A DNA stretch of 32,000 nt from Geminocystis sp. NIES-3709 (GCF_001548115.1 NZ_AP014821.1:1707262-1739261); one strand, 5' to 3'. Counted from the stretch's first letter, positions 21,132 to 30,216 are shown. Program-made: numbers and translations. The notes: generated by a model from the letters alone, not told the origin.

Positions 21132-22307
21132 GTGAAAATAGTTTGTTCTCAAGTAGATCTTAAAAATAATTTATCATTAGTTAGTCGTGCCGTTCCCTCT
21201 CGTCCTACCCATCCCATTTTAGGTAATATCTTGTTAGTAGCGGATGAAGACAAAAACAGAATTACTCTCACTGGGTTTGATTTAAGTTTAGGAATGCGTA
21301 CCAGTTTTGCCTCGGAAGTAGAAGAAGGGGGTATGATTACTTTACCTTCTAAGTTATTAAATGATATTATTGCTCGTTTACCAGAAGGGGAGATTACTTT
21401 ATCTTATGATGAGGATGAATTAGATGAAAATCCTCTAGTTGCGATCGACTCTTTATCTGGTAAATTTCAATTAAGAGGAGTAAAGGGAGACGAGTTTCCT
21501 GAGTTGCCGATAGTCGAGAAAGAGGAAGCCTTTTTCTTACCCATTACTGCGTTGATTGAGGGGTTAAAAGGTTCTTTATTTTCTGCTAGTAGTGACGAAA
21601 CCAAGCAAATATTAACAGGGGTTCATCTTACCAGAGAGTTAGACAGTTTGGAATTTGCGGCCACGGATGGCCACCGTTTAGCTGTTGTTAAAACCACTGC
21701 TGAAAAACAAGAAGATGAAACCGAGGAAACTGATTCACCTTTAACGGAAGAACAGAATTTTAATATTACTATACCTGCTAGAGCATTAAGGGAGTTAGAG
21801 AAGATTATTTCTGGTGAGAAAGACAATGAATCTGTTGCTTTGTATGTAGATCAAGGACAAGTTGTTTTTGAGTTGGGGGATCAACATCTTACTAGCAGAA
21901 AGTTGGAGGGTGCTTACCCTAATTATGGTCAATTAATTCCTAAAAGTTTTGAAAGAACAATGATTGTCGATCGAAAACAAGTAATTGATAGTTTAGAGAG
22001 GGTTTCGGTTTTTGCAGATCAAAAAAATAATATGGTTAAGTTTAATTTAGATCATAATAGTAATGAACTAACTTTATCGGTGGAGGCTAAAGAGTTAGGC
22101 AATGCAAAAGCATCTTTGTCGGCAGAAATAACGGGAGAAGGCTTTGATATTGGTTTTAATATTCGCTATTTAATGGATGGGTTAAAAGCATTATCAGCTA
22201 ACGATATTAAGTTTCAGTTGAATGGGGCAACTCAACCAGTGATTATCACTCCTCTTAGTGGTTTACAAATGACTTATTTAATTATGCCTGTTCAAATACG
22301 GGAATAA
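21132..22307 (+). CDS. dnaN: DNA polymerase III beta subunit (sliding clamp)
   Basis: The GTG start gives MKIVCSQ..L...L..V..AVPSRPTHPIL. The three-domain length is right and the C-terminal PVIITP...YLIMPV motif is present. Confidence 0.95.
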   Translation: MKIVCSQVDLKNNLSLVSRAVPSRPTHPILGNILLVADEDKNRITLTGFDLSLGMRTSFASEVEEGGMITLPSKLLNDIIARLPEGEITLSYDEDELDENPLVAIDSLSGKFQLRGVKGDEFPELPIVEKEEAFFLPITALIEGLKGSLFSASSDETKQILTGVHLTRELDSLEFAATDGHRLAVVKTTAEKQEDETEETDSPLTEEQNFNITIPARALRELEKIISGEKDNESVALYVDQGQVVFELGDQHLTSRKLEGAYPNYGQLIPKSFERTMIVDRKQVIDSLERVSVFADQKNNMVKFNLDHNSNELTLSVEAKELGNAKASLSAEITGEGFDIGFNIRYLMDGLKALSANDIKFQLNGATQPVIITPLSGLQMTYLIMPVQIRE

Positions 22308-22646
22308 TAGACCTCTTGCAAAACTAAAATAAACAATATATTTTTGACAATTCGGAGTATGTAAGGAGTGAATGCCTCCGAAAAAACCAATTCACTCACT
22401 AATAGTATAATAAATATTTATATATTACTGATAAAAGTGCCTATTAACTAAAACTCAATTAATTTATTACAAATTTTCTTCATAAACCATAATTTTTCTT
22501 TTTTACTTAGGCTTCTTTTTGCTTTATTTCATAATTATAAATCCCAGCAATTAAGTTAAATCTTAATCCAAATCTTTTTCTTCTATTTCGATACCTTTGT
22601 GATAATATTTTAAATATTTTTAGCTTTCGATTAACATGTTCTATTA

Positions 22647-23939
22647 CTGATAATTCCAAGAACCTTGAAAAGCTATACAATTGCTGAAATCCCCAAAAAA
22701 TCCTGCTGAAAATGCTCTTTGATTACATCTGTTAGTCGAGTTGATGATTGAATTTTTCTCATTATTTGCGTTAATGATAAACGACGAAAATTTGCCATAA
22801 ACTGTATTGATAATAACATTAAATACATTATTATCTTAATTAATAATCCTGTATAAATTCCTTGTTTCCTTAATTTCATCTCGGCAATTTTTAGCACCGA
22901 TTTTAAAATTTTCCAAAACTGTTCAATAATATTGTGTGCAGTCCATGTCCGCCATATTTCCGCTCCTCTCAATGATATACTACTTAAATCTATCAACAAA
23001 TAACAATTACTATTACTTTTTTGAAAAAACAATAAATTGAGAGTTCCAAAAGTTGGATTTGATAATTTTTGTCTCACACAAGGTACATCAATTCCCCATT
23101 GATTTTCTTGATAATCTACTCTTTTTTGACCTTCACTTCCTTTGCCTTTAAAGTTCTCTCCTTCAAATACATAACTGCCTTTTCCAGCCATAATAATTTT
23201 GGTGAATCCTAGTTCAGATAATTGCTCTTTTAATTCTTTTGATGCATACCAAGAATCCAGAGTAATTGGATATTTAGTAATATCTATATTTTCTTTGAGA
23301 CATTCTTCTTTAATTTGTCTTAACATCCCAACTAATATACTCGGTTTATTTGTATTTTTTCTTCCTTGTTTAGAACAAAATATTAATCCAATTGGTATTG
23401 CTTTTCCCTTAATTGTTAATATTATTCCTAATATATTTTGTCCATTTACCACTTTTTTCCAACGTCCACTATACCAATTCCATGTACAACGTAATCTCTT
23501 TCCTACTCTGTCAATAACACTATCATCTACCGCAAGTGTTATATTTGCTCTTGATTGAGTAACAATACTTTTTTGTTCGATGATTTGCAACTGTTCCACT
23601 GCAACATTAATCATCATTAATTTTAAAACTTTTCGGAGTTTATATAATGTCCAAGAAGAAATTTCTGTATAGATTTTTTGGTGACTAACACCAAGCAAAT
23701 CTGCTAATTGTTTGGGATTAAAACAGCCATAAGCATGACTAATTGCTAAAATCATAATTGCTTCAAATGCTTCAATTTTATGAGAGCGAAATAATTTACT
23801 AAATTTGACAAAGAAAAGCTGAATTATGTTAGCCAGATGAAATCTCATGGTTAATTAAAAATATTTAGAGCATTTTCATTTAAGCATATGTCTTGATTCT
23901 TAACACTTTCAGCTTTTCAGTCATTTCCAGAATTGTCAG
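22647..23939 (-). mobile_element. Intact 1293-bp IS (IS4/IS701-like superfamily)
   Basis: Imperfect ~28-bp terminal inverted repeats are ctgataattcc...tgaaaagct and ctgacaattct...tgaaaagct. A 5-bp direct repeat TATTA sits at 22642-46 and 23940-44. There is one transposase ORF. Confidence 0.75.
22673..23848 (-). CDS. DDE transposase (IS4/IS701-like)
   Basis: The 391-aa ORF has candidate catalytic residues in LAVDDSV, TLDSWYAS and HNIIEQFWKILK, an IS4-type YREK-like block. Confidence 0.85.
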   Translation of the reverse strand: MRFHLANIIQLFFVKFSKLFRSHKIEAFEAIMILAISHAYGCFNPKQLADLLGVSHQKIYTEISSWTLYKLRKVLKLMMINVAVEQLQIIEQKSIVTQSRANITLAVDDSVIDRVGKRLRCTWNWYSGRWKKVVNGQNILGIILTIKGKAIPIGLIFCSKQGRKNTNKPSILVGMLRQIKEECLKENIDITKYPITLDSWYASKELKEQLSELGFTKIIMAGKGSYVFEGENFKGKGSEGQKRVDYQENQWGIDVPCVRQKLSNPTFGTLNLLFFQKSNSNCYLLIDLSSISLRGAEIWRTWTAHNIIEQFWKILKSVLKIAEMKLRKQGIYTGLLIKIIMYLMLLSIQFMANFRRLSLTQIMRKIQSSTRLTDVIKEHFQQDFLGISAIV

Positions 23940-24305
23940 TATTACTATTCTTTCTCTATTTATCCTTTTTTGTTCTTTACTCCCTAAAATATTGTAATGT
24001 AACCATAACCTGTTCTTCTACCGTTAGTTTTAGTTTTCTTCCCAGTTTTTTATTTTTGACTATTTTTACAAGTAATTGATAAGTTTTTTTGGTGACACCA
24101 AATCTTCTTTTAAAGTTTTTGGGTAACAATTTTTCCACTCTTTTTATTTTCATAAGCTAATCTTATGTTTTCTTTGGGTACGACGGCTTATAATAACAAA
24201 TTATGACCCTCTATTTTTATTTCAACTTAATTTTGCAAGAAATCTAGTAACTGATAAAAGTTATGAATAATTTATTTTCTCTTGGTTATATAAAATTTTC
24301 CTGAG

Positions 24306-25046: not shown

Positions 25047-25149
25047 CTTAATTTGTATTTTGAGTATTATAAACTGACATTCTGCATATTTTTATCACTT
25101 ATAAAAAACTATAATTATGTTATCTAATTTTGGGATGACACTTTCTGAT

Positions 25150-26892
25150 TTATGCAACAAAGCTTTTTGGAATTGTAAAAAAGAATTTTGATCCTTTTCC
25201 TAGATCTGATTCTACCCAGATTTTACCACCGTGACGAGTAACAATTTTTTGACATAAAGCTAAACCAATACCAGTGCCTTTGTATTTATCTTGGGTGTGT
25301 AGTCTCTGAAAGACGACAAAAATTCTCTCTTGAAACTCTGGTGAAATACCAATGCCATTATCTTCGACACAGAATAACCATTGATCAATTAAAGATTGTA
25401 CCGTTAAATTGATTGTTAGTGGTCGATCGCTATGAAACTTCAGAGAATTACTGATTAAGTTCTGCCATAGTTGAGTCAGTTGAAATTTATCTCCCATTAT
25501 TATAGGTAATTGTTTATAGGTAATCTCTGCATTTGTTTCTTTAATAGATATTTGTAAAATTTCTAAAATATCTTGAATAATTTCATTACAGTTTACTAGA
25601 GAAAATTCCTGTCCTCTAGTTTGAATTCTTGATAAAGATAAGAGATCTTTTATTAACTGTTTCATTCGATTAGAAGCAGACATTATCAAATCTAAATATA
25701 GTTGTCCTTCTTCATCTATTTGATGATAATATTCTTCTTTTAAAAGTTCAGAAAAACTGCTAATAGTTCTTAATGGTTCTTGTAAATCATGGGAAGCGAC
25801 GTAAGCAAATTGTTCTAATTCTTCATTCGATCGTTGTAATTCTTTATTCCAAGTTTTTAGCTCTTTTTGCATTCCATAAGTTTCGATCGCTTTGACAAAT
25901 GTTTCATTAATTAATCTTGTAAAAATCAAATCAACTCTATCCCATTTTTTAGGCTTTTTAATAGAAATAAACATTAAAAATCCTATAAAGGAATCCCCAT
26001 AAATCAAAGGATATGCTAAAAGAGATTTAATATTATTTTGTAGAATATAAGATTCTTTTAAGAAATTATATTTTTTATCATTTTCCAAGTTATTGATATA
26101 AACTACATTAAAATCTTTTAAAATATCTATTAAAAACAATAATTCATTGTTACAATTAATTTTTTTTGTATTTTCACCATAAAAATACTGATCTTGACCA
26201 AGTTTAGTAGTAGATAATCCTTTAAGAAATAAATAACTTTGATCAATGGCTAATACTTCAGTTATTTTTTTTAAAGAAATATTAAATTTATCTTCGATCT
26301 CATTAGTAGAAACTTTAATAAACAAACTAGAAATATAAGTAATTAATTGCTCTAATTTTATTTTATATTTAAGTCGTTCATTAATTTTTTTTATTTGTAA
26401 AGTTCTTTTTTCTACTATTTCCTCTAATTCTTGATTTAAAGTTTTTAACTGTAATTCTATTACCTGCTTTTCTTGAATACGAGTTTCTAAATCTTGATTA
26501 AGAATACTTAATTTTTCTGGTGTTGGTAACGCTAAAGCCATAGGAATAATGGGAAATAACTCAAAAGCCGTCAAAACTGACACTAACGCTGTCAATCCTT
26601 TAATTAATCCAGATAACCAGTAAAGGGGATACCAAATCGTTATTATTCCCATAACATGAGTTAAACCACAAAATAGAATAAAACAGCTAAATAGTAAAAA
26701 TATATAAGTGAAGGGAATATCATTTCTTTGACGCACAAAATAAATTAACATAAAAGGTATCGAAAAATAGGCTATCCCTATAAACATATCTGAAAGTAAA
26801 TGTAGCCAGACGAGAGAAGACTGCCATAAATAACAATGTCCATGAGGGATATAATAGTTAGAGGAAAAAATACTAATAGTGGAGAATAACAT
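25150..26892 (-). CDS. Sensor histidine kinase with an ETR1-like ethylene-binding-type membrane domain, coiled coil, GAF, HisKA and HATPase domains
   Basis: Residues 33-53, LSDMFIGIAYFSIPFMLIYFV, match ETR1 ISDFFIAIAYFSIPLELIYFV as I recall it. FCGLTH (C75, H79) aligns with ETR1 C65 and H69. The H-box is ASHDLQEPLR (H368), the N-box is NLISNSLKF, and the G-boxes are DNGIGI and GTGIGL. Confidence 0.88.
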   Translation of the reverse strand: MLFSTISIFSSNYYIPHGHCYLWQSSLVWLHLLSDMFIGIAYFSIPFMLIYFVRQRNDIPFTYIFLLFSCFILFCGLTHVMGIITIWYPLYWLSGLIKGLTALVSVLTAFELFPIIPMALALPTPEKLSILNQDLETRIQEKQVIELQLKTLNQELEEIVEKRTLQIKKINERLKYKIKLEQLITYISSLFIKVSTNEIEDKFNISLKKITEVLAIDQSYLFLKGLSTTKLGQDQYFYGENTKKINCNNELLFLIDILKDFNVVYINNLENDKKYNFLKESYILQNNIKSLLAYPLIYGDSFIGFLMFISIKKPKKWDRVDLIFTRLINETFVKAIETYGMQKELKTWNKELQRSNEELEQFAYVASHDLQEPLRTISSFSELLKEEYYHQIDEEGQLYLDLIMSASNRMKQLIKDLLSLSRIQTRGQEFSLVNCNEIIQDILEILQISIKETNAEITYKQLPIIMGDKFQLTQLWQNLISNSLKFHSDRPLTINLTVQSLIDQWLFCVEDNGIGISPEFQERIFVVFQRLHTQDKYKGTGIGLALCQKIVTRHGGKIWVESDLGKGSKFFFTIPKSFVA

Positions 26893-26961: not shown

Positions 26962-28881
26962 ATGAAAATTCTTTTAGTGGAAGATGATCAACGTTTAGGA
27001 AAACTAATACATGACTATTTAGTTAATGAATCAGCCGTAGTTGAAATAGTTAATACTGGATTTAATATAGCAGAAAAACTGAGTAAACAATGTTATGACA
27101 TTTTAATATTAGATGTCATGTTACCCAAAAAAAATGGTATTGATATTTGTCGAGAATTACGATCGAATAATGTAGATATTGCCATCTTATTTATTACTGC
27201 TTTAAATAATAAAATAGATAAAATTAAAGCCTTTGAATCTGGTGCAGATGATTACCTAATTAAACCCTTCGATTTTGAGGAATTATTAGCTAGAGTAAAA
27301 GCTTTACTAAGACGTGAAAAAAAGACTGAACTTTGTAATCTAACATGGAATAATTTAGTTATGTATCCTGAAGAAAAAAAAGTGATATATAATCATAATT
27401 ATTTACATTTAACTCCCACAGAATTTAAAATTTTACAAATTTTTTTAGAAACTCCTAATAAAGTATTTAATACACAATCAATTATCGATCGACTTTGGGA
27501 AATTGATACCACACCAACGGATAGTACTTTAAGAACTCATATTAAATCTTTAAGAAAAAAATTAGAAGAAGTAGGATTAGATAAAAACTTTATAGAAACT
27601 CTATATGGTATGGGTTATCGTTTAAAACAAGAGAGAGAAAAAAGATCAGAAAAACAACATCAATCTTTTAATAATAATAAAAAAAATATAGATAAAATTT
27701 CTGATTTATTAGAAAAAAATATTAGAGAAAATAAAGAAAATCAATTTCAAAATTTAATCAAACAAATGTGGTTAGATAATCAAGAAACCGTTAGTAAAGA
27801 TTGTCAGGAATTATCTAATTATATACAGGGTAATAATAATATAGATATTAATAAAGCTATAAATATAGCCCATAATTTTGTTGGTTTTTTAGGAAGTCTT
27901 GGTTTCGACACGGCTAGTAAAATTTCTAAAAATATAGAAAATTTATTAAAAGAAAATCAGAATAATTTATCTGATAAGAAAGTAAAATTCAAGATACTTA
28001 CATTACTTGATACCTTAGAAAAAAATTTATTTCCCAATGGAAAGCAATGTATTCCTAAAAAGGAAAAAAAAGAAAAAATATTGCCTAAAAATAAAATAGA
28101 AATACTCGTTATTGATGAAGATATAAAAATAGCTAATAATCTAATCCTTTTTATGGATAATCCTCAAGTGGTTTTTCACTTTGTTCACTCGATCGTATTT
28201 GGGATAAAATATCTCAAAGAAAGACAATATGACGTGGTAATTTTAGAAACTCACTGGGAAAAATCTTCATCTGATCAATTAACTGATATATTAAACTTTT
28301 TAAAAGAAAAAAAAGAAGAAACTAAGACAATAATTTATAGTAAAAATGATACTTTAGAGAACAGATTATATTGTTCAAAATATCCTATAAGTGCTTTTTT
28401 AAATAAAACTAATACTCTTGATGTTTTATGGGAAAATATTTTTAATATTTTGTCTAATAATCACAGCACCTCTAATATTACGCCTCTTTATGACATTTTA
28501 GTTATTGATGATGATATTAGATTTACAGAGGTTTTAAAACAGAAATTAATTAGTAATAGATTGCCCATTAATATCAATATTATTTCTGATAGTGAAATTT
28601 TTTTAGAAGAGATAAAAAGAATTAAACCTCAATTAATTATTTTGGATTTACAAATGCCAAAATTAGATGGATTAGACATTTGTAAAATTATCAAAAAGGA
28701 TCCTTTTTTACAAAATATACCAATTATTTTTTTAACAGGAAATCTCGAACCTGATATTATGAATCAATTTGTTGAAGCTGGAGCAGATGATTTTATCAGT
28801 AAGTCTAAAATTGATTTAGAGTTATACCCTAGAATTATGACCCATCTTAAGAGATTTAATTTATCACATTTAGTTACTTAA
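26962..28881 (+). CDS. Multi-domain response regulator: REC, OmpR-type winged helix, HPt-like, REC (Glu at acceptor position), REC
   Basis: REC1 has EDD, D51, T79 and K101. The wHTH covers aa 125-222 and ends in GMGYRLK. The HPt-like motif is AHNFVGFLGSLG (H304). REC2 has VIDED, then VVILE (E429), S460 and K482. REC3 has DDD, ILD(562)LQMP, T592 and K614. Confidence 0.85.
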   Translation: MKILLVEDDQRLGKLIHDYLVNESAVVEIVNTGFNIAEKLSKQCYDILILDVMLPKKNGIDICRELRSNNVDIAILFITALNNKIDKIKAFESGADDYLIKPFDFEELLARVKALLRREKKTELCNLTWNNLVMYPEEKKVIYNHNYLHLTPTEFKILQIFLETPNKVFNTQSIIDRLWEIDTTPTDSTLRTHIKSLRKKLEEVGLDKNFIETLYGMGYRLKQEREKRSEKQHQSFNNNKKNIDKISDLLEKNIRENKENQFQNLIKQMWLDNQETVSKDCQELSNYIQGNNNIDINKAINIAHNFVGFLGSLGFDTASKISKNIENLLKENQNNLSDKKVKFKILTLLDTLEKNLFPNGKQCIPKKEKKEKILPKNKIEILVIDEDIKIANNLILFMDNPQVVFHFVHSIVFGIKYLKERQYDVVILETHWEKSSSDQLTDILNFLKEKKEETKTIIYSKNDTLENRLYCSKYPISAFLNKTNTLDVLWENIFNILSNNHSTSNITPLYDILVIDDDIRFTEVLKQKLISNRLPININIISDSEIFLEEIKRIKPQLIILDLQMPKLDGLDICKIIKKDPFLQNIPIIFLTGNLEPDIMNQFVEAGADDFISKSKIDLELYPRIMTHLKRFNLSHLVT

Positions 28882-28894
28882 TTTTTTAGATTAT

Positions 28895-29293
28895 ATGATG
28901 AAAATTTTTACCAATAATAGTACTATTACAATTTTAGTTATTGATGATAGTAAAGAGATTCAACAACTAATTAAAATGTCCTTAGAAATGATTAATCAAT
29001 GGCAAGTTATTAGTGCTAATTCTGGCTTACAGGGATTAAAAATAGCCATAGAAAAAGATGATTTAGATTTAATTTTATTAGATTATTTAATGCCCCAAAA
29101 TAAAGGAGATGAAATCATCAAAAAGCTACAAGCAAATCCAAAAACTGCATCTATTCCCGTTATCTTTTTAACGGCACAATCAGATGAACAATTTCACTGG
29201 AAAAAATTAGGAGCAAAAGGTATTATCTATAAGCCTTTTAACCCTATCAATTTAGGCGATTTAATCCGAGATATTTTAGAATGTCGAATGTAA
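28895..29293 (+). CDS. Single-domain (CheY-like) response regulator
   Basis: Receiver motifs are VIDDS, ILLDYLMP, FLTAQ and YKPF. It starts 13 nt after the preceding gene, so co-transcription is likely. An alternative ATG lies at 28898. Confidence 0.9.
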   Translation: MMKIFTNNSTITILVIDDSKEIQQLIKMSLEMINQWQVISANSGLQGLKIAIEKDDLDLILLDYLMPQNKGDEIIKKLQANPKTASIPVIFLTAQSDEQFHWKKLGAKGIIYKPFNPINLGDLIRDILECRM

Positions 29294-29502: not shown

Positions 29503-30216
29503 ATGCTTGAAAAACGATCGCAACCATATCAACCATTACTACTAAGAATTATTCATAATTTTCAGGGGATATTTGTCATTTTGGCAATGATAACCGCTTT
29601 TTGGACATACAACACTTATGATGGACGATGGGGTAAAATATTATGGCTTTCTGATTGGCAAGAAATAGAGGGAATTCATGGAACTTTTGGCTTATTTGCA
29701 ATGTTAATATTACCCTTTTTTGTTATCTATGTGTTTCATTTTGGAAATAAAAAACTTATTCAAAGTAATAGTATTAGTCAACTAAAATTAATTAATAAGC
29801 CTATTTGGTGGTATTCTCTTCATCGCATCACTAATACATTTATAATTTTTGCTTTAACATTTTCAGTATTTACAGGAAAAATGATGGATGAAAAATGGTT
29901 GCCAAAAAGAGAATTAAATCATTTTTGGTACTATTTACATTTAATATCTCTTATTATCATAACTTTAGCCGTTGGGTTACATTTACTTATGAGTATAAAA
30001 ATCGGAGGCTATCCTCTACTGCTATCAATGATTGAATCTCAGATTAGAGAAAAAGATAGCTGGAAATCATACCGAAAAAAGATTGAGGATTACCAAAAAA
30101 ATTGGCTAACATATATAAAAAAAGAGTGGCTAACCTTACCTACTCTTTTTCAAATACTAGAACTAATAATATTATTAATAATTATTACAGCTTGGGTTAT
30201 TTCATTATTAAAATAA
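29503..30216 (+). CDS. Cytochrome b561-like (bacterial cytochrome b, Ni/Fe-hydrogenase CytB-type) membrane protein with a C-terminal extension
   Basis: Four TM helices each carry a His: LLRIIHNF, GIHGTFG, LHRITN and YYLHLISL...GLHLL. A charged segment and a fifth TM helix follow. The family call comes from the His/TM pattern only. Confidence 0.5.
   Translation: MLEKRSQPYQPLLLRIIHNFQGIFVILAMITAFWTYNTYDGRWGKILWLSDWQEIEGIHGTFGLFAMLILPFFVIYVFHFGNKKLIQSNSISQLKLINKPIWWYSLHRITNTFIIFALTFSVFTGKMMDEKWLPKRELNHFWYYLHLISLIIITLAVGLHLLMSIKIGGYPLLLSMIESQIREKDSWKSYRKKIEDYQKNWLTYIKKEWLTLPTLFQILELIILLIIITAWVISLLK

What the first reader, a model, noticed from the sequence alone, without database searches (positions are those of the whole stretch)
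25150..26892. The histidine kinase has a plant ETR1-like ethylene-binding domain and an ETR1-like domain order
Residues ~17-118 form three TM helices. They align without gaps, at an offset of +10, to Arabidopsis ETR1 as I recall that sequence. LSDMFIGIAYFSIPFMLIYFV matches ISDFFIAIAYFSIPLELIYFV at 16 of 21 positions. This covers the equivalents of D25, Y32 and P36. FCGLTH supplies C75 and H79 at the positions of the Cu(I)-ligating C65 and H69. A coiled coil, a GAF domain without an obvious bilin-binding Cys-His or DXCF motif, and a complete HisKA/HATPase core (H368) follow. The order ethylene-binding domain, GAF, kinase mirrors plant ETR1 more closely than the photoreceptor-fused Synechocystis SynEtr1. 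Ethylene-binding domains in cyanobacteria are established. This GAF-only, receiver-less variant and its partners may not be.
Basis: partly seen in the sequence, partly recalled or inferred. Interest (0 to 1): 0.75.

Follow-up and report, generated by a model that had tools for sequence, protein, structure and literature searches.

The report
Cyanobacterial ethylene-receptor-like histidine kinase
This Geminocystis gene encodes a membrane sensor kinase with the same copper-dependent ethylene-binding domain as plant ethylene receptors, but such kinases are widespread in cyanobacteria and this domain layout is already published, so it is an ordinary uncharacterised member of a known family.

Summary
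Window 25150..26892 (-) encodes a 580-aa kinase of Geminocystis sp. NIES-3709 (WP_066117931.1). Residues 27-122 match Pfam ETR1_N at E=2e-38. A formal alignment to plant receptors puts D35, Y42, I45, P46, I72, C75, H79 and K98 on ETR1 D25, Y32, I35, P36, I62, C65, H69 and K91.

After the sensor come a 66-residue helix, a real but divergent GAF with no conserved Cys, and a complete HisKA/HATPase core (H368). There is no receiver.

Three corrections apply:
- The ungapped +10 offset holds only for TM1 and TM2. TM3 sits at +7.
- The layout is ERS1-like, and it is already published for a cyanobacterium (GeiEtr1, Allen 2019).
- Only the sensor domain is demonstrably ETR1-related. The GAF shows no profile similarity to plant GAFs, and the kinase is bacteriophytochrome-like.

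The sensor-domain family is large (8,762 clusters at 50% identity).

The local twist is in the partners. Relatives encode an Rcp1-like receiver directly downstream, whereas here its ortholog lies about 1,000 genes away. The divergent REC-wHTH-Hpt-pseudoREC-REC regulator and a small receiver remain adjacent.

Verdict: new member of a known kind, low to moderate interest. Ethylene binding is inferred, not shown.

The parts
25150..26892 (-). Complete gene for the 580-aa EBD-GAF-histidine kinase (RefSeq WP_066117931.1). The original GenBank model BAQ64797.1 starts at GTG V53 and lacks TM1.
   Evidence: ORF list. 100% match to P0001/P0361 of Geminocystis sp. NIES-3709. Orthologs of 575-583 aa cover 98-100% of the ORF.
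26824..26853 (-). N-terminal motif YIPHGHCYLW (residues 14-23), upstream of TM1 and predicted to be extracytoplasmic. C20 aligns with ETR1 C4, one of the two dimer disulfide cysteines.
   Evidence: Invariant in 8 orthologs. C20 and W23 are invariant and P16/H17/G18/H19/Y21/L22 are at 90% or more in 53 diverse cyanobacterial EBD kinases. It lies outside the Pfam ETR1_N model. MAFFT aligns C20 with ETR1 C4.
26527..26814 (-). Ethylene-binding domain (residues 27-122, three TM helices). Cu(I) ligands are C75 (26668-26670) and H79 (26656-26658). D35 (26788-26790) and K98 (26599-26601) are the equivalents of the Asp25-Lys91 bridge.
   Evidence: Pfam ETR1_N E=2e-38. Alignment to plant receptors. AF2 helices 25-55, 62-87, 91-112. 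Coordinates verified.
26323..26520 (-). Single long helix (residues 125-190), presumed dimeric coiled coil linking TM3 to the GAF domain.
   Evidence: AF2 model H125-190, pLDDT about 88-94. The heptad-like sequence is conserved in orthologs.
25915..26307 (-). Divergent GAF domain (residues about 196-326) without a conserved cysteine, so not a bilin-binding type.
   Evidence: Pfam GAF hits in 8/8 orthologs, best 7e-10. PDB profile hits 3o5y, 3p01, 3ci6 and CBCR GAFs. AF2 alpha/beta fold 196-318. No invariant Cys.
25618..25818 (-). DHp/HisKA domain (residues 359-425) with phospho-acceptor H368 (25789-25791) in the H-box ASHDLQEPLR. It is continuous with the helix that leaves the GAF (319-391).
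   Evidence: Pfam HisKA E=1.9e-14. Invariant H-box in 53 relatives. AF2 H319-391 and H394-425.
25165..25494 (-). Catalytic ATP-binding domain (residues 467-576) with intact N, G1, F and G2 boxes.
   Evidence: Pfam HATPase_c E=8.7e-27. Motifs printed and invariant. Best solved relative is the RpBphP2 kinase 8f71.
26962..28881 (+). Divergently transcribed 639-aa regulator (BAQ64798.1): REC1 (D51), OmpR-type wHTH (148-221), Hpt (275-352, H304), pseudo-receiver (acceptor position is E429), REC3 (D562). Candidate downstream partner.
   Evidence: Pfam. Receiver alignment. Adjacent and divergent to the kinase in 5 Geminocystis-clade loci.
28895..29293 (+). 132-aa stand-alone receiver (WP_197671872.1) with canonical DD/D/T/K residues, 14 bp downstream of the 639-aa regulator. 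Candidate partner.
   Evidence: Pfam Response_reg E=7.5e-20. Receiver alignment. Conserved next to the 631-644-aa regulator in L001, L006 and L008.
25047..25149 (.). Synteny break point. In relatives an Rcp1-like receiver gene starts 6-9 bp after the kinase stop or overlaps it. Here there is a 103-bp spacer followed by an unrelated SDR gene.
   Evidence: Contexts L001, L003, L005, L008, L009. tblastn of those receivers against the whole window finds only generic REC similarity.

Best explanation
The gene encodes a homodimeric, three-pass membrane sensor histidine kinase of the bacterial ethylene-receptor family, with a GeiEtr1/ERS1-like layout.

Proposed mechanism:
1. Each protomer's TM bundle holds Cu(I) through C75 and H79 in TM2. 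D35 in TM1 polarises H79 and bridges to K98 in TM3.
2. Ethylene binds the copper. The D35-K98 link moves TM3.
3. The movement travels down one continuous helix (125-190), through a ligand-less structural GAF, and along a second continuous helix (319-391) into the DHp bundle. This changes autophosphorylation at H368. By analogy with ETR1 and SynEtr1, the change is probably a decrease.
4. The phosphoryl group goes to stand-alone receivers. The ancestral partner is the Rcp1-like receiver that is adjacent in relatives. In this strain that receiver (BAQ65794.1) is encoded roughly 1,000 genes away. A second likely route is the divergently encoded REC-wHTH-Hpt-pseudoREC-REC regulator plus the 132-aa receiver, which would give a transcriptional output.

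Shown here: domain identity, residue conservation, predicted fold and gene neighbourhoods.
Inferred: copper and ethylene binding, the sign of the response, and the partner assignments.
For: - ETR1_N at E=2e-38.
- All residues reported as essential or mechanistic for ETR1 are identical in the formal alignment: D25, I35, P36, I62, C65, H69 (PMC6586836; PMC10266040) and K91. Y32 is added from my recollection of Wang et al. 2006. The same residues are invariant across 53 cyanobacterial relatives.
- The protein carries Asp, not the low-affinity Asn variant, at the D25 position.
- Ethylene binding has been shown experimentally for homologous cyanobacterial domains and cells: SynEtr1[1-130], Geitlerinema and Synechocystis cells (PMC6682694).
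- The AF2 model (pLDDT 83.4) shows three TM helices, then a helix, a GAF, another helix, and DHp/CA.
- The kinase motifs are intact.
- A receiver gene sits directly downstream in L001, L003 (4-bp overlap), L005, L008 and L009. Its family is named Rcp1 by JGI, which matches the bacteriophytochrome-type kinase core.
- The NIES-3709 ortholog P0244 is 74% identical and lies on the same chromosome.
- The divergent regulator pair is conserved in 5 loci.
Against: - No biochemical data exist for this protein or for any Geminocystis strain.
- The conserved kinase-receiver operon is broken in this strain, and the ortholog in CENA526 is split into two ORFs. The system may be under relaxed selection in this clade.
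- The distance to P0244 is inferred only from accession numbering.
- Partner specificity was not tested. The divergent regulator is absent from the more distant orthologs L003, L005 and L011.
- The sign of the ethylene effect rests purely on analogy.
Confidence: 0.8

Rival explanations
1. The domain binds copper but the physiological signal is not ethylene. It could report copper availability, redox state, or another small unsaturated or pi-acceptor molecule, with ethylene binding being incidental.
For: Function is inferred from homology only. The family is very large and diverse in cyanobacteria (8,762 clusters), with many output architectures, and most members are untested. A conserved extracytoplasmic HGHC motif hints at additional metal handling.
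Against: Every residue needed for ethylene binding in ETR1 is conserved. Cyanobacterial homologs that have been tested do bind ethylene with plant-like affinity and produce ethylene-dependent phenotypes (PMC6682694).
Confidence: 0.1
2. The locus is a decaying or functionally orphaned system. The kinase lost its cognate adjacent receiver through an IS-associated rearrangement and no longer signals usefully.
For: The downstream Rcp1-like receiver and REC-HK genes are missing from the window. A DDE-transposase-like ORF lies 1.3 kb away. The CENA526 ortholog is split into 346-aa and 158-aa ORFs.
Against: The ORF is intact, with all sensor and catalytic residues. The receiver ortholog still exists on the chromosome at 74% identity. 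Two-component partners do not need to be linked. The divergent regulator pair is retained.
Confidence: 0.07
3. It is a dual light and ethylene sensor like SynEtr1, with the GAF domain binding a bilin.
For: The profile of the GAF weakly hits cyanobacteriochrome-derived GAFs such as miRFP670nano (2e-5). The cytoplasmic part resembles bacteriophytochromes.
Against: No cysteine is conserved anywhere in residues 130-345 among the orthologs, and C247 is unique to this strain. The GAF is the least conserved part of the protein, with only about 15 invariant columns. No PAS or PHY domain is present.
Confidence: 0.03

Closest known systems
GeiEtr1 of Geitlerinema sp. PCC 7105 (Allen et al. 2019, PMC6682694)
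   Same: A cyanobacterial protein with an N-terminal ethylene-binding domain, then a GAF, then a histidine kinase, and no receiver. All seven ethylene-binding residues are conserved. It has a single N-terminal Cys.
   Different: Its neighbourhood differs (a lycopene cyclase gene was reported). Geitlerinema cells have been shown to bind and respond to ethylene, whereas nothing is known for Geminocystis.
Arabidopsis ERS1 and ETR1 (subfamily 1 plant ethylene receptors)
   Same: The EBD is homologous (42% identity over ETR1 20-117) with identical Cu, ethylene and signalling residues. The order EBD-GAF-kinase is the same, and the kinase has intact catalytic motifs. The absence of a receiver matches ERS1.
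   Different: The TM2-TM3 loop is 3 residues shorter. There is one N-terminal Cys rather than two, within a PHGHCYLW motif absent from plants. The EBD-GAF helix is much longer. The GAF is not detectably related at profile level. The kinase is bacteriophytochrome-type with the H-box ASHDLQEPLR. Output is through bacterial receivers rather than CTR1/EIN2.
SynEtr1 (Slr1212/UirS/PixA) of Synechocystis PCC 6803
   Same: A cyanobacterial EBD fused to a histidine kinase. Ethylene binding by residues 1-130 has been demonstrated. It signals to response regulators.
   Different: SynEtr1 carries PAS and a bilin-binding cyanobacteriochrome GAF and is also a photoreceptor. The window protein has a single Cys-less GAF and no PAS.
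Cph1/bacteriophytochrome kinase module with Rcp1-type receiver
   Same: The cytoplasmic GAF-helix-DHp-CA arrangement and the kinase sequence are closest to these (8upk, 8f71). The neighbour gene conserved in relatives is an Rcp1-like stand-alone receiver.
   Different: The sensor is a copper-containing TM bundle instead of a PAS-GAF-PHY bilin module.

Membership tests
Ethylene receptor-like proteins (Pfam ETR1_N / ethylene-binding domain family) | Significant match to the ETR1_N profile across its full length | tested here: met
   E=2e-38, 131 bits against a cut-off of 27, profile positions 2-97 of 97.
Ethylene receptor-like proteins (Pfam ETR1_N / ethylene-binding domain family) | Three N-terminal transmembrane helices | tested here: met
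   AF2 helices 25-55, 62-87 and 91-112. Hydropathy peaks lie in the same segments.
Ethylene receptor-like proteins (Pfam ETR1_N / ethylene-binding domain family) | Cu(I)-ligating Cys and His in TM2 at the ETR1 C65 and H69 positions | tested here: met
   C75 and H79 align with C65 and H69 in BLASTP and MAFFT. Both are invariant in 53 relatives.
Ethylene receptor-like proteins (Pfam ETR1_N / ethylene-binding domain family) | The other residues required for ethylene binding or signalling in ETR1 (D25, Y32, I35, P36, I62, K91) | tested here: met
   D35, Y42, I45, P46, I72 and K98 are identical in the alignment. Residue roles come from PMC6586836 and PMC10266040. Y32 is from my recollection of Wang et al. 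2006.
Ethylene receptor-like proteins (Pfam ETR1_N / ethylene-binding domain family) | Saturable high-affinity ethylene binding that depends on copper | not testable with these tools
   Needs a 14C-ethylene binding assay and a Cu(I) titration of the expressed domain.
ERS1/GeiEtr1-type architecture (EBD-GAF-HK, no receiver) | A GAF domain between the EBD and the kinase, with no PAS | tested here: met
   Pfam GAF in 8/8 orthologs, PDB GAF hits and the AF2 fold. No PAS hit.
ERS1/GeiEtr1-type architecture (EBD-GAF-HK, no receiver) | A catalytically complete histidine kinase and no C-terminal receiver | tested here: met
   The H, N, G1, F and G2 boxes are present. The protein ends 4 residues after HATPase_c.
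Plant ETR1/ERS1 orthology of the whole protein | GAF and kinase domains specifically related to those of plant receptors | tested here: not met
   hhalign of the GAF against a plant receptor alignment gives probability 0.4%, E=0.17. The kinase is much closer to bacteriophytochrome kinases (1e-49) than to the ETR1 catalytic domain (5e-9).
Cyanobacteriochrome/phytochrome photoreceptors | A conserved bilin-binding Cys in or before the GAF | tested here: not met
   No invariant Cys in residues 130-345 of the 8 orthologs.

The most novel reading that the evidence does not exclude
In the Geminocystis clade the ethylene-receptor kinase may feed a self-contained multi-step His-Asp-His-Asp relay. The ancestral five-gene cluster is a small REC, a REC-wHTH-Hpt-pseudoREC-REC protein, the EBD-GAF-HK, an Rcp1-like REC and a REC-HK. 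It would end in an OmpR-type DNA-binding output on the same polypeptide as the Hpt domain. That would be a bacterial ethylene-to-transcription pathway that uses an Hpt step, echoing the proposed plant ETR1-AHP-ARR route. The conserved extracytoplasmic HGHC motif might be a copper-acquisition site specific to cyanobacterial receptors.
Probability: 0.15. Interest if true: 0.55.

Novelty: new member of a known kind. Interest (0 to 1): 0.25.

Why it matters
Cyanobacterial ethylene receptors are thought to be the ancestors of the plant hormone receptors, and only a few have been studied (SynEtr1, GeiEtr1/2, and AzoEtr1 in a proteobacterium). A compact receptor with no photoreceptor module, in a sequenced and culturable unicellular strain, would be a clean model for how the copper/ethylene site drives an active histidine kinase, without interference from light sensing. 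The naturally split operon in NIES-3709, compared with the intact one in the co-isolated NIES-3708, offers a natural comparison for partner specificity. None of this changes current understanding. It adds a member to the family and corrects one annotation.

Tried and rejected
- **Bilin photoreceptor reading:** rejected. No Cys is conserved in the GAF.
- **GAF specifically related to the plant ETR1 GAF:** not supported by hhalign or BLASTP.
- **Rcp1-like receiver or a remnant in the window:** tblastn found none.
- **Locating the relocated receiver in NIES-3709:** exact-product look-ups failed for P0244 and P0001. The genome-contig scan did not include that genome. Only the accession offset could be used.
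- **Conserved operator or repeats in the divergent kinase/regulator spacer:** the spacers are AT-rich and not conserved.
- **Promoter and terminator scan:** at chance level.
- **Inverted repeats around the transposase-like ORF:** only weak ones (I3, 23 nt, 83%), not pursued.
- **Solved structure of an ethylene-binding domain:** none found by sequence or by fold.
- **Papers not held:** Wang et al. 2006 and Lacey & Binder 2016.

Full report
**What is there**

Window 25150..26892 on the minus strand is a single 580-aa ORF. It is 100% identical to a protein of Geminocystis sp. NIES-3709, a freshwater unicellular cyanobacterium (33% G+C, one chromosome plus 12 plasmids; PMC4417701). The RefSeq model WP_066117931.1 has the full 580 aa. 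The original GenBank model BAQ64797.1 starts at GTG V53, so it lacks TM1 and four of the key sensor residues. Seven orthologs of 575-583 aa (50-73% identity) cover 98-100% of the ORF, which confirms the long model.

**The observation checked**

Pfam has a curated model for exactly this domain, ETR1_N (PF25487). Residues 27-122 match it end to end at E=2e-38.

To avoid relying on a remembered sequence, I searched with the recalled AtETR1 N-terminus and obtained a database protein, P0121. It is named 'ethylene receptor', carries Pfam ETR1_N plus GAF, and is 98% identical to the recalled string. BLASTP of the window protein against P0121 gives E=4e-17.

MAFFT with three plant receptors aligns these residue pairs:

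| Window protein | ETR1 |
|---|---|
| D35 | D25 |
| Y42 | Y32 |
| I45 | I35 |
| P46 | P36 |
| I72 | I62 |
| C75 | C65 |
| T78 | T68 |
| H79 | H69 |
| K98 | K91 |
| P117 | P110 |

There are 39/92 identities over ETR1 20-117. These are the residues reported as copper ligands, as essential for ethylene binding, or as the Asp25-His69 / Asp25-Lys91 signalling bridge (PMC6586836; PMC10266040; PMC11971883). The role of Y32 rests on my recollection of Wang et al. 2006, which is not held. All of them are invariant or nearly so in 53 diverse cyanobacterial relatives.

The TM2-TM3 loop is three residues shorter than in ETR1, so TM3 sits at +7.

**Rest of the protein**

An AlphaFold2 model built on the 53-sequence alignment has a mean pLDDT of 83.4. 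It shows:
- TM helices at 25-55, 62-87 and 91-112.
- One uninterrupted helix at 125-190.
- An alpha/beta domain at 196-318.
- A second long helix at 319-391 that runs straight into the DHp.
- The catalytic domain after that.

The middle domain is a genuine but divergent GAF. It scores 19.6 bits in the whole protein and 22.8 bits (cut-off 22.4) when scanned alone. All 8 orthologs hit Pfam GAF, best 7e-10. The ortholog profile's best PDB hits are GAF structures (3o5y at 3.7e-6, 3p01, 3ci6). No cysteine is conserved between residues 130 and 345, so a bilin-binding photoreceptor role like that of SynEtr1 is rejected.

The kinase has H368 in an ASHDLQEPLR H-box and intact N, G1, F and G2 boxes. The protein ends four residues after HATPase_c, so there is no receiver.

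**How ETR1-like is it?**

Only the sensor domain is demonstrably ETR1-related. A profile-profile comparison of the GAF with a 20-sequence plant receptor alignment gives probability 0.4%. The kinase core is much closer to bacteriophytochrome kinases than to ETR1's own catalytic domain: RpBphP2 8f71 scores E=1e-49 at 39-40% identity, and full-length 8upk aligns over 478 columns, whereas 4pl9 scores 5e-9.

The shared EBD-GAF-kinase order is therefore an architectural parallel. Without a receiver, it is the ERS1 layout rather than the ETR1 layout.

**What is already known**

Allen et al. 2019 describe GeiEtr1 of Geitlerinema PCC 7105 as EBD-GAF-kinase without a receiver, 'similar to AtERS1 and AtERS2'. 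They show that Geitlerinema and Synechocystis cells, and SynEtr1[1-130], bind ethylene with plant-like affinity (PMC6682694). A PNAS study compared 1,221 EBDs from plants and bacteria.

In the 1.84-billion-representative library, the window's EBD finds 8,762 clusters at E<=1e-3 and 1,566 at E<=1e-30. Among the best 150 representatives, 100 have this type of kinase core. Most one-domain spacers are PAS. A GAF-only spacer without a receiver appears only in P0375 and the ortholog group, with P0495 unassigned. The layout is thus a minority among close relatives but not new. No paper discusses ethylene sensing in Geminocystis.

**Partners**

Five Geminocystis-clade loci share the following cluster:

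REC(~130) <- REC-wHTH-Hpt-REC-REC(631-644 aa) <- | -> EBD-GAF-HK -> REC(144-145) -> REC-HK(374-376)

More distant orthologs keep only the kinase and the downstream receiver, with a 4-bp overlap in L003. That receiver belongs to the family JGI labels Rcp1, which fits the phytochrome-type kinase.

In this window the two downstream genes are absent. An SDR gene follows the kinase after 103 bp, and a DDE-transposase-like ORF lies beyond it. The receiver was not lost. Its ortholog P0244 (BAQ65794.1, 74% identity) is on the same chromosome, 997 accession numbers from the kinase. If accession order follows gene order, that is about 1 Mb. I could not read that locus.

The divergent 639-aa protein has a canonical REC1 (D51), an OmpR-type wHTH, an Hpt (H304; 24.9 bits against a cut-off of 24.6), a pseudo-receiver with Glu at the acceptor position (E429), and a canonical REC3 (D562). 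The 132-aa receiver is canonical.

**Most likely mechanism**

Cu(I) is held by C75 and H79 and binds ethylene. The D35-K98 bridge couples this to TM3. The signal runs through the helix-GAF-helix spine to the DHp and alters autophosphorylation at H368, probably lowering it by analogy with ETR1 and SynEtr1. Phosphotransfer then goes to the Rcp1-like receiver, to the adjacent multi-domain regulator and small receiver, or to both.

Domain identities, residue conservation, fold and neighbourhoods are shown. Ligand binding, the sign of the response and the partners are inferred.

**Verdict**

This is a new, uncharacterised member of a known kind. Its points of modest interest are the split operon and the unusual Hpt-containing regulator next door.

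Noticed in passing
window 26962-28881 (+): The 639-aa protein combines REC, an OmpR-type wHTH, Hpt (H304), a pseudo-receiver (Glu at the acceptor position, E429) and a third canonical REC in one polypeptide. This is an unusual 'response regulator with an internal phosphorelay' architecture, conserved at 631-644 aa in five Geminocystis-clade loci.
   Followed up: partly
window 26824-26853 (-), residues 14-23 of the kinase: The motif YIPHGHCYLW precedes TM1 and is nearly invariant across 53 cyanobacterial EBD kinases, but lies outside the Pfam ETR1_N model and is absent from plant receptors. The His-Gly-His-Cys cluster would face the periplasm or lumen and could be a dimerisation or metal-handling site. 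The string was not found in the searchable literature.
   Followed up: partly
window 26734-26892 (-): The original GenBank gene model (BAQ64797.1, 528 aa) starts at GTG V53 and removes TM1 along with D35, Y42, I45 and P46. RefSeq WP_066117931.1 has the correct 580-aa start.
   Followed up: yes
window 22305-24249, ORF 22673-23848 (-): A 391-aa ORF has weak DDE transposase similarity (DDE_5, DDE_Tnp_1, sub-threshold) and is flanked by a 23-nt imperfect inverted repeat (83% complementary). It may be an IS element near the point where synteny with relatives breaks.
   Followed up: partly
L008 8001-9731 (Geminocystis sp. CENA526): The ortholog of the kinase is split into a 346-aa EBD-GAF ORF and a 158-aa HATPase ORF. 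This is probably a frameshift, a pseudogene or an assembly error.
   Followed up: no
L001 10194-11318, L008 10221-11351, L009 4256-5380: A sensor-less REC-HisKA-HATPase protein (374-376 aa) is conserved downstream of the Rcp1-like receiver in the ancestral cluster. This suggests a two-tier kinase cascade. It is absent from this window.
   Followed up: no
window 29503-30216 (+): A cytochrome b561-family membrane protein (Ni_hydr_CYTB, E=2.8e-11) lies 210 bp downstream of the 132-aa receiver. It is not conserved at this position in the relatives examined.
   Followed up: no
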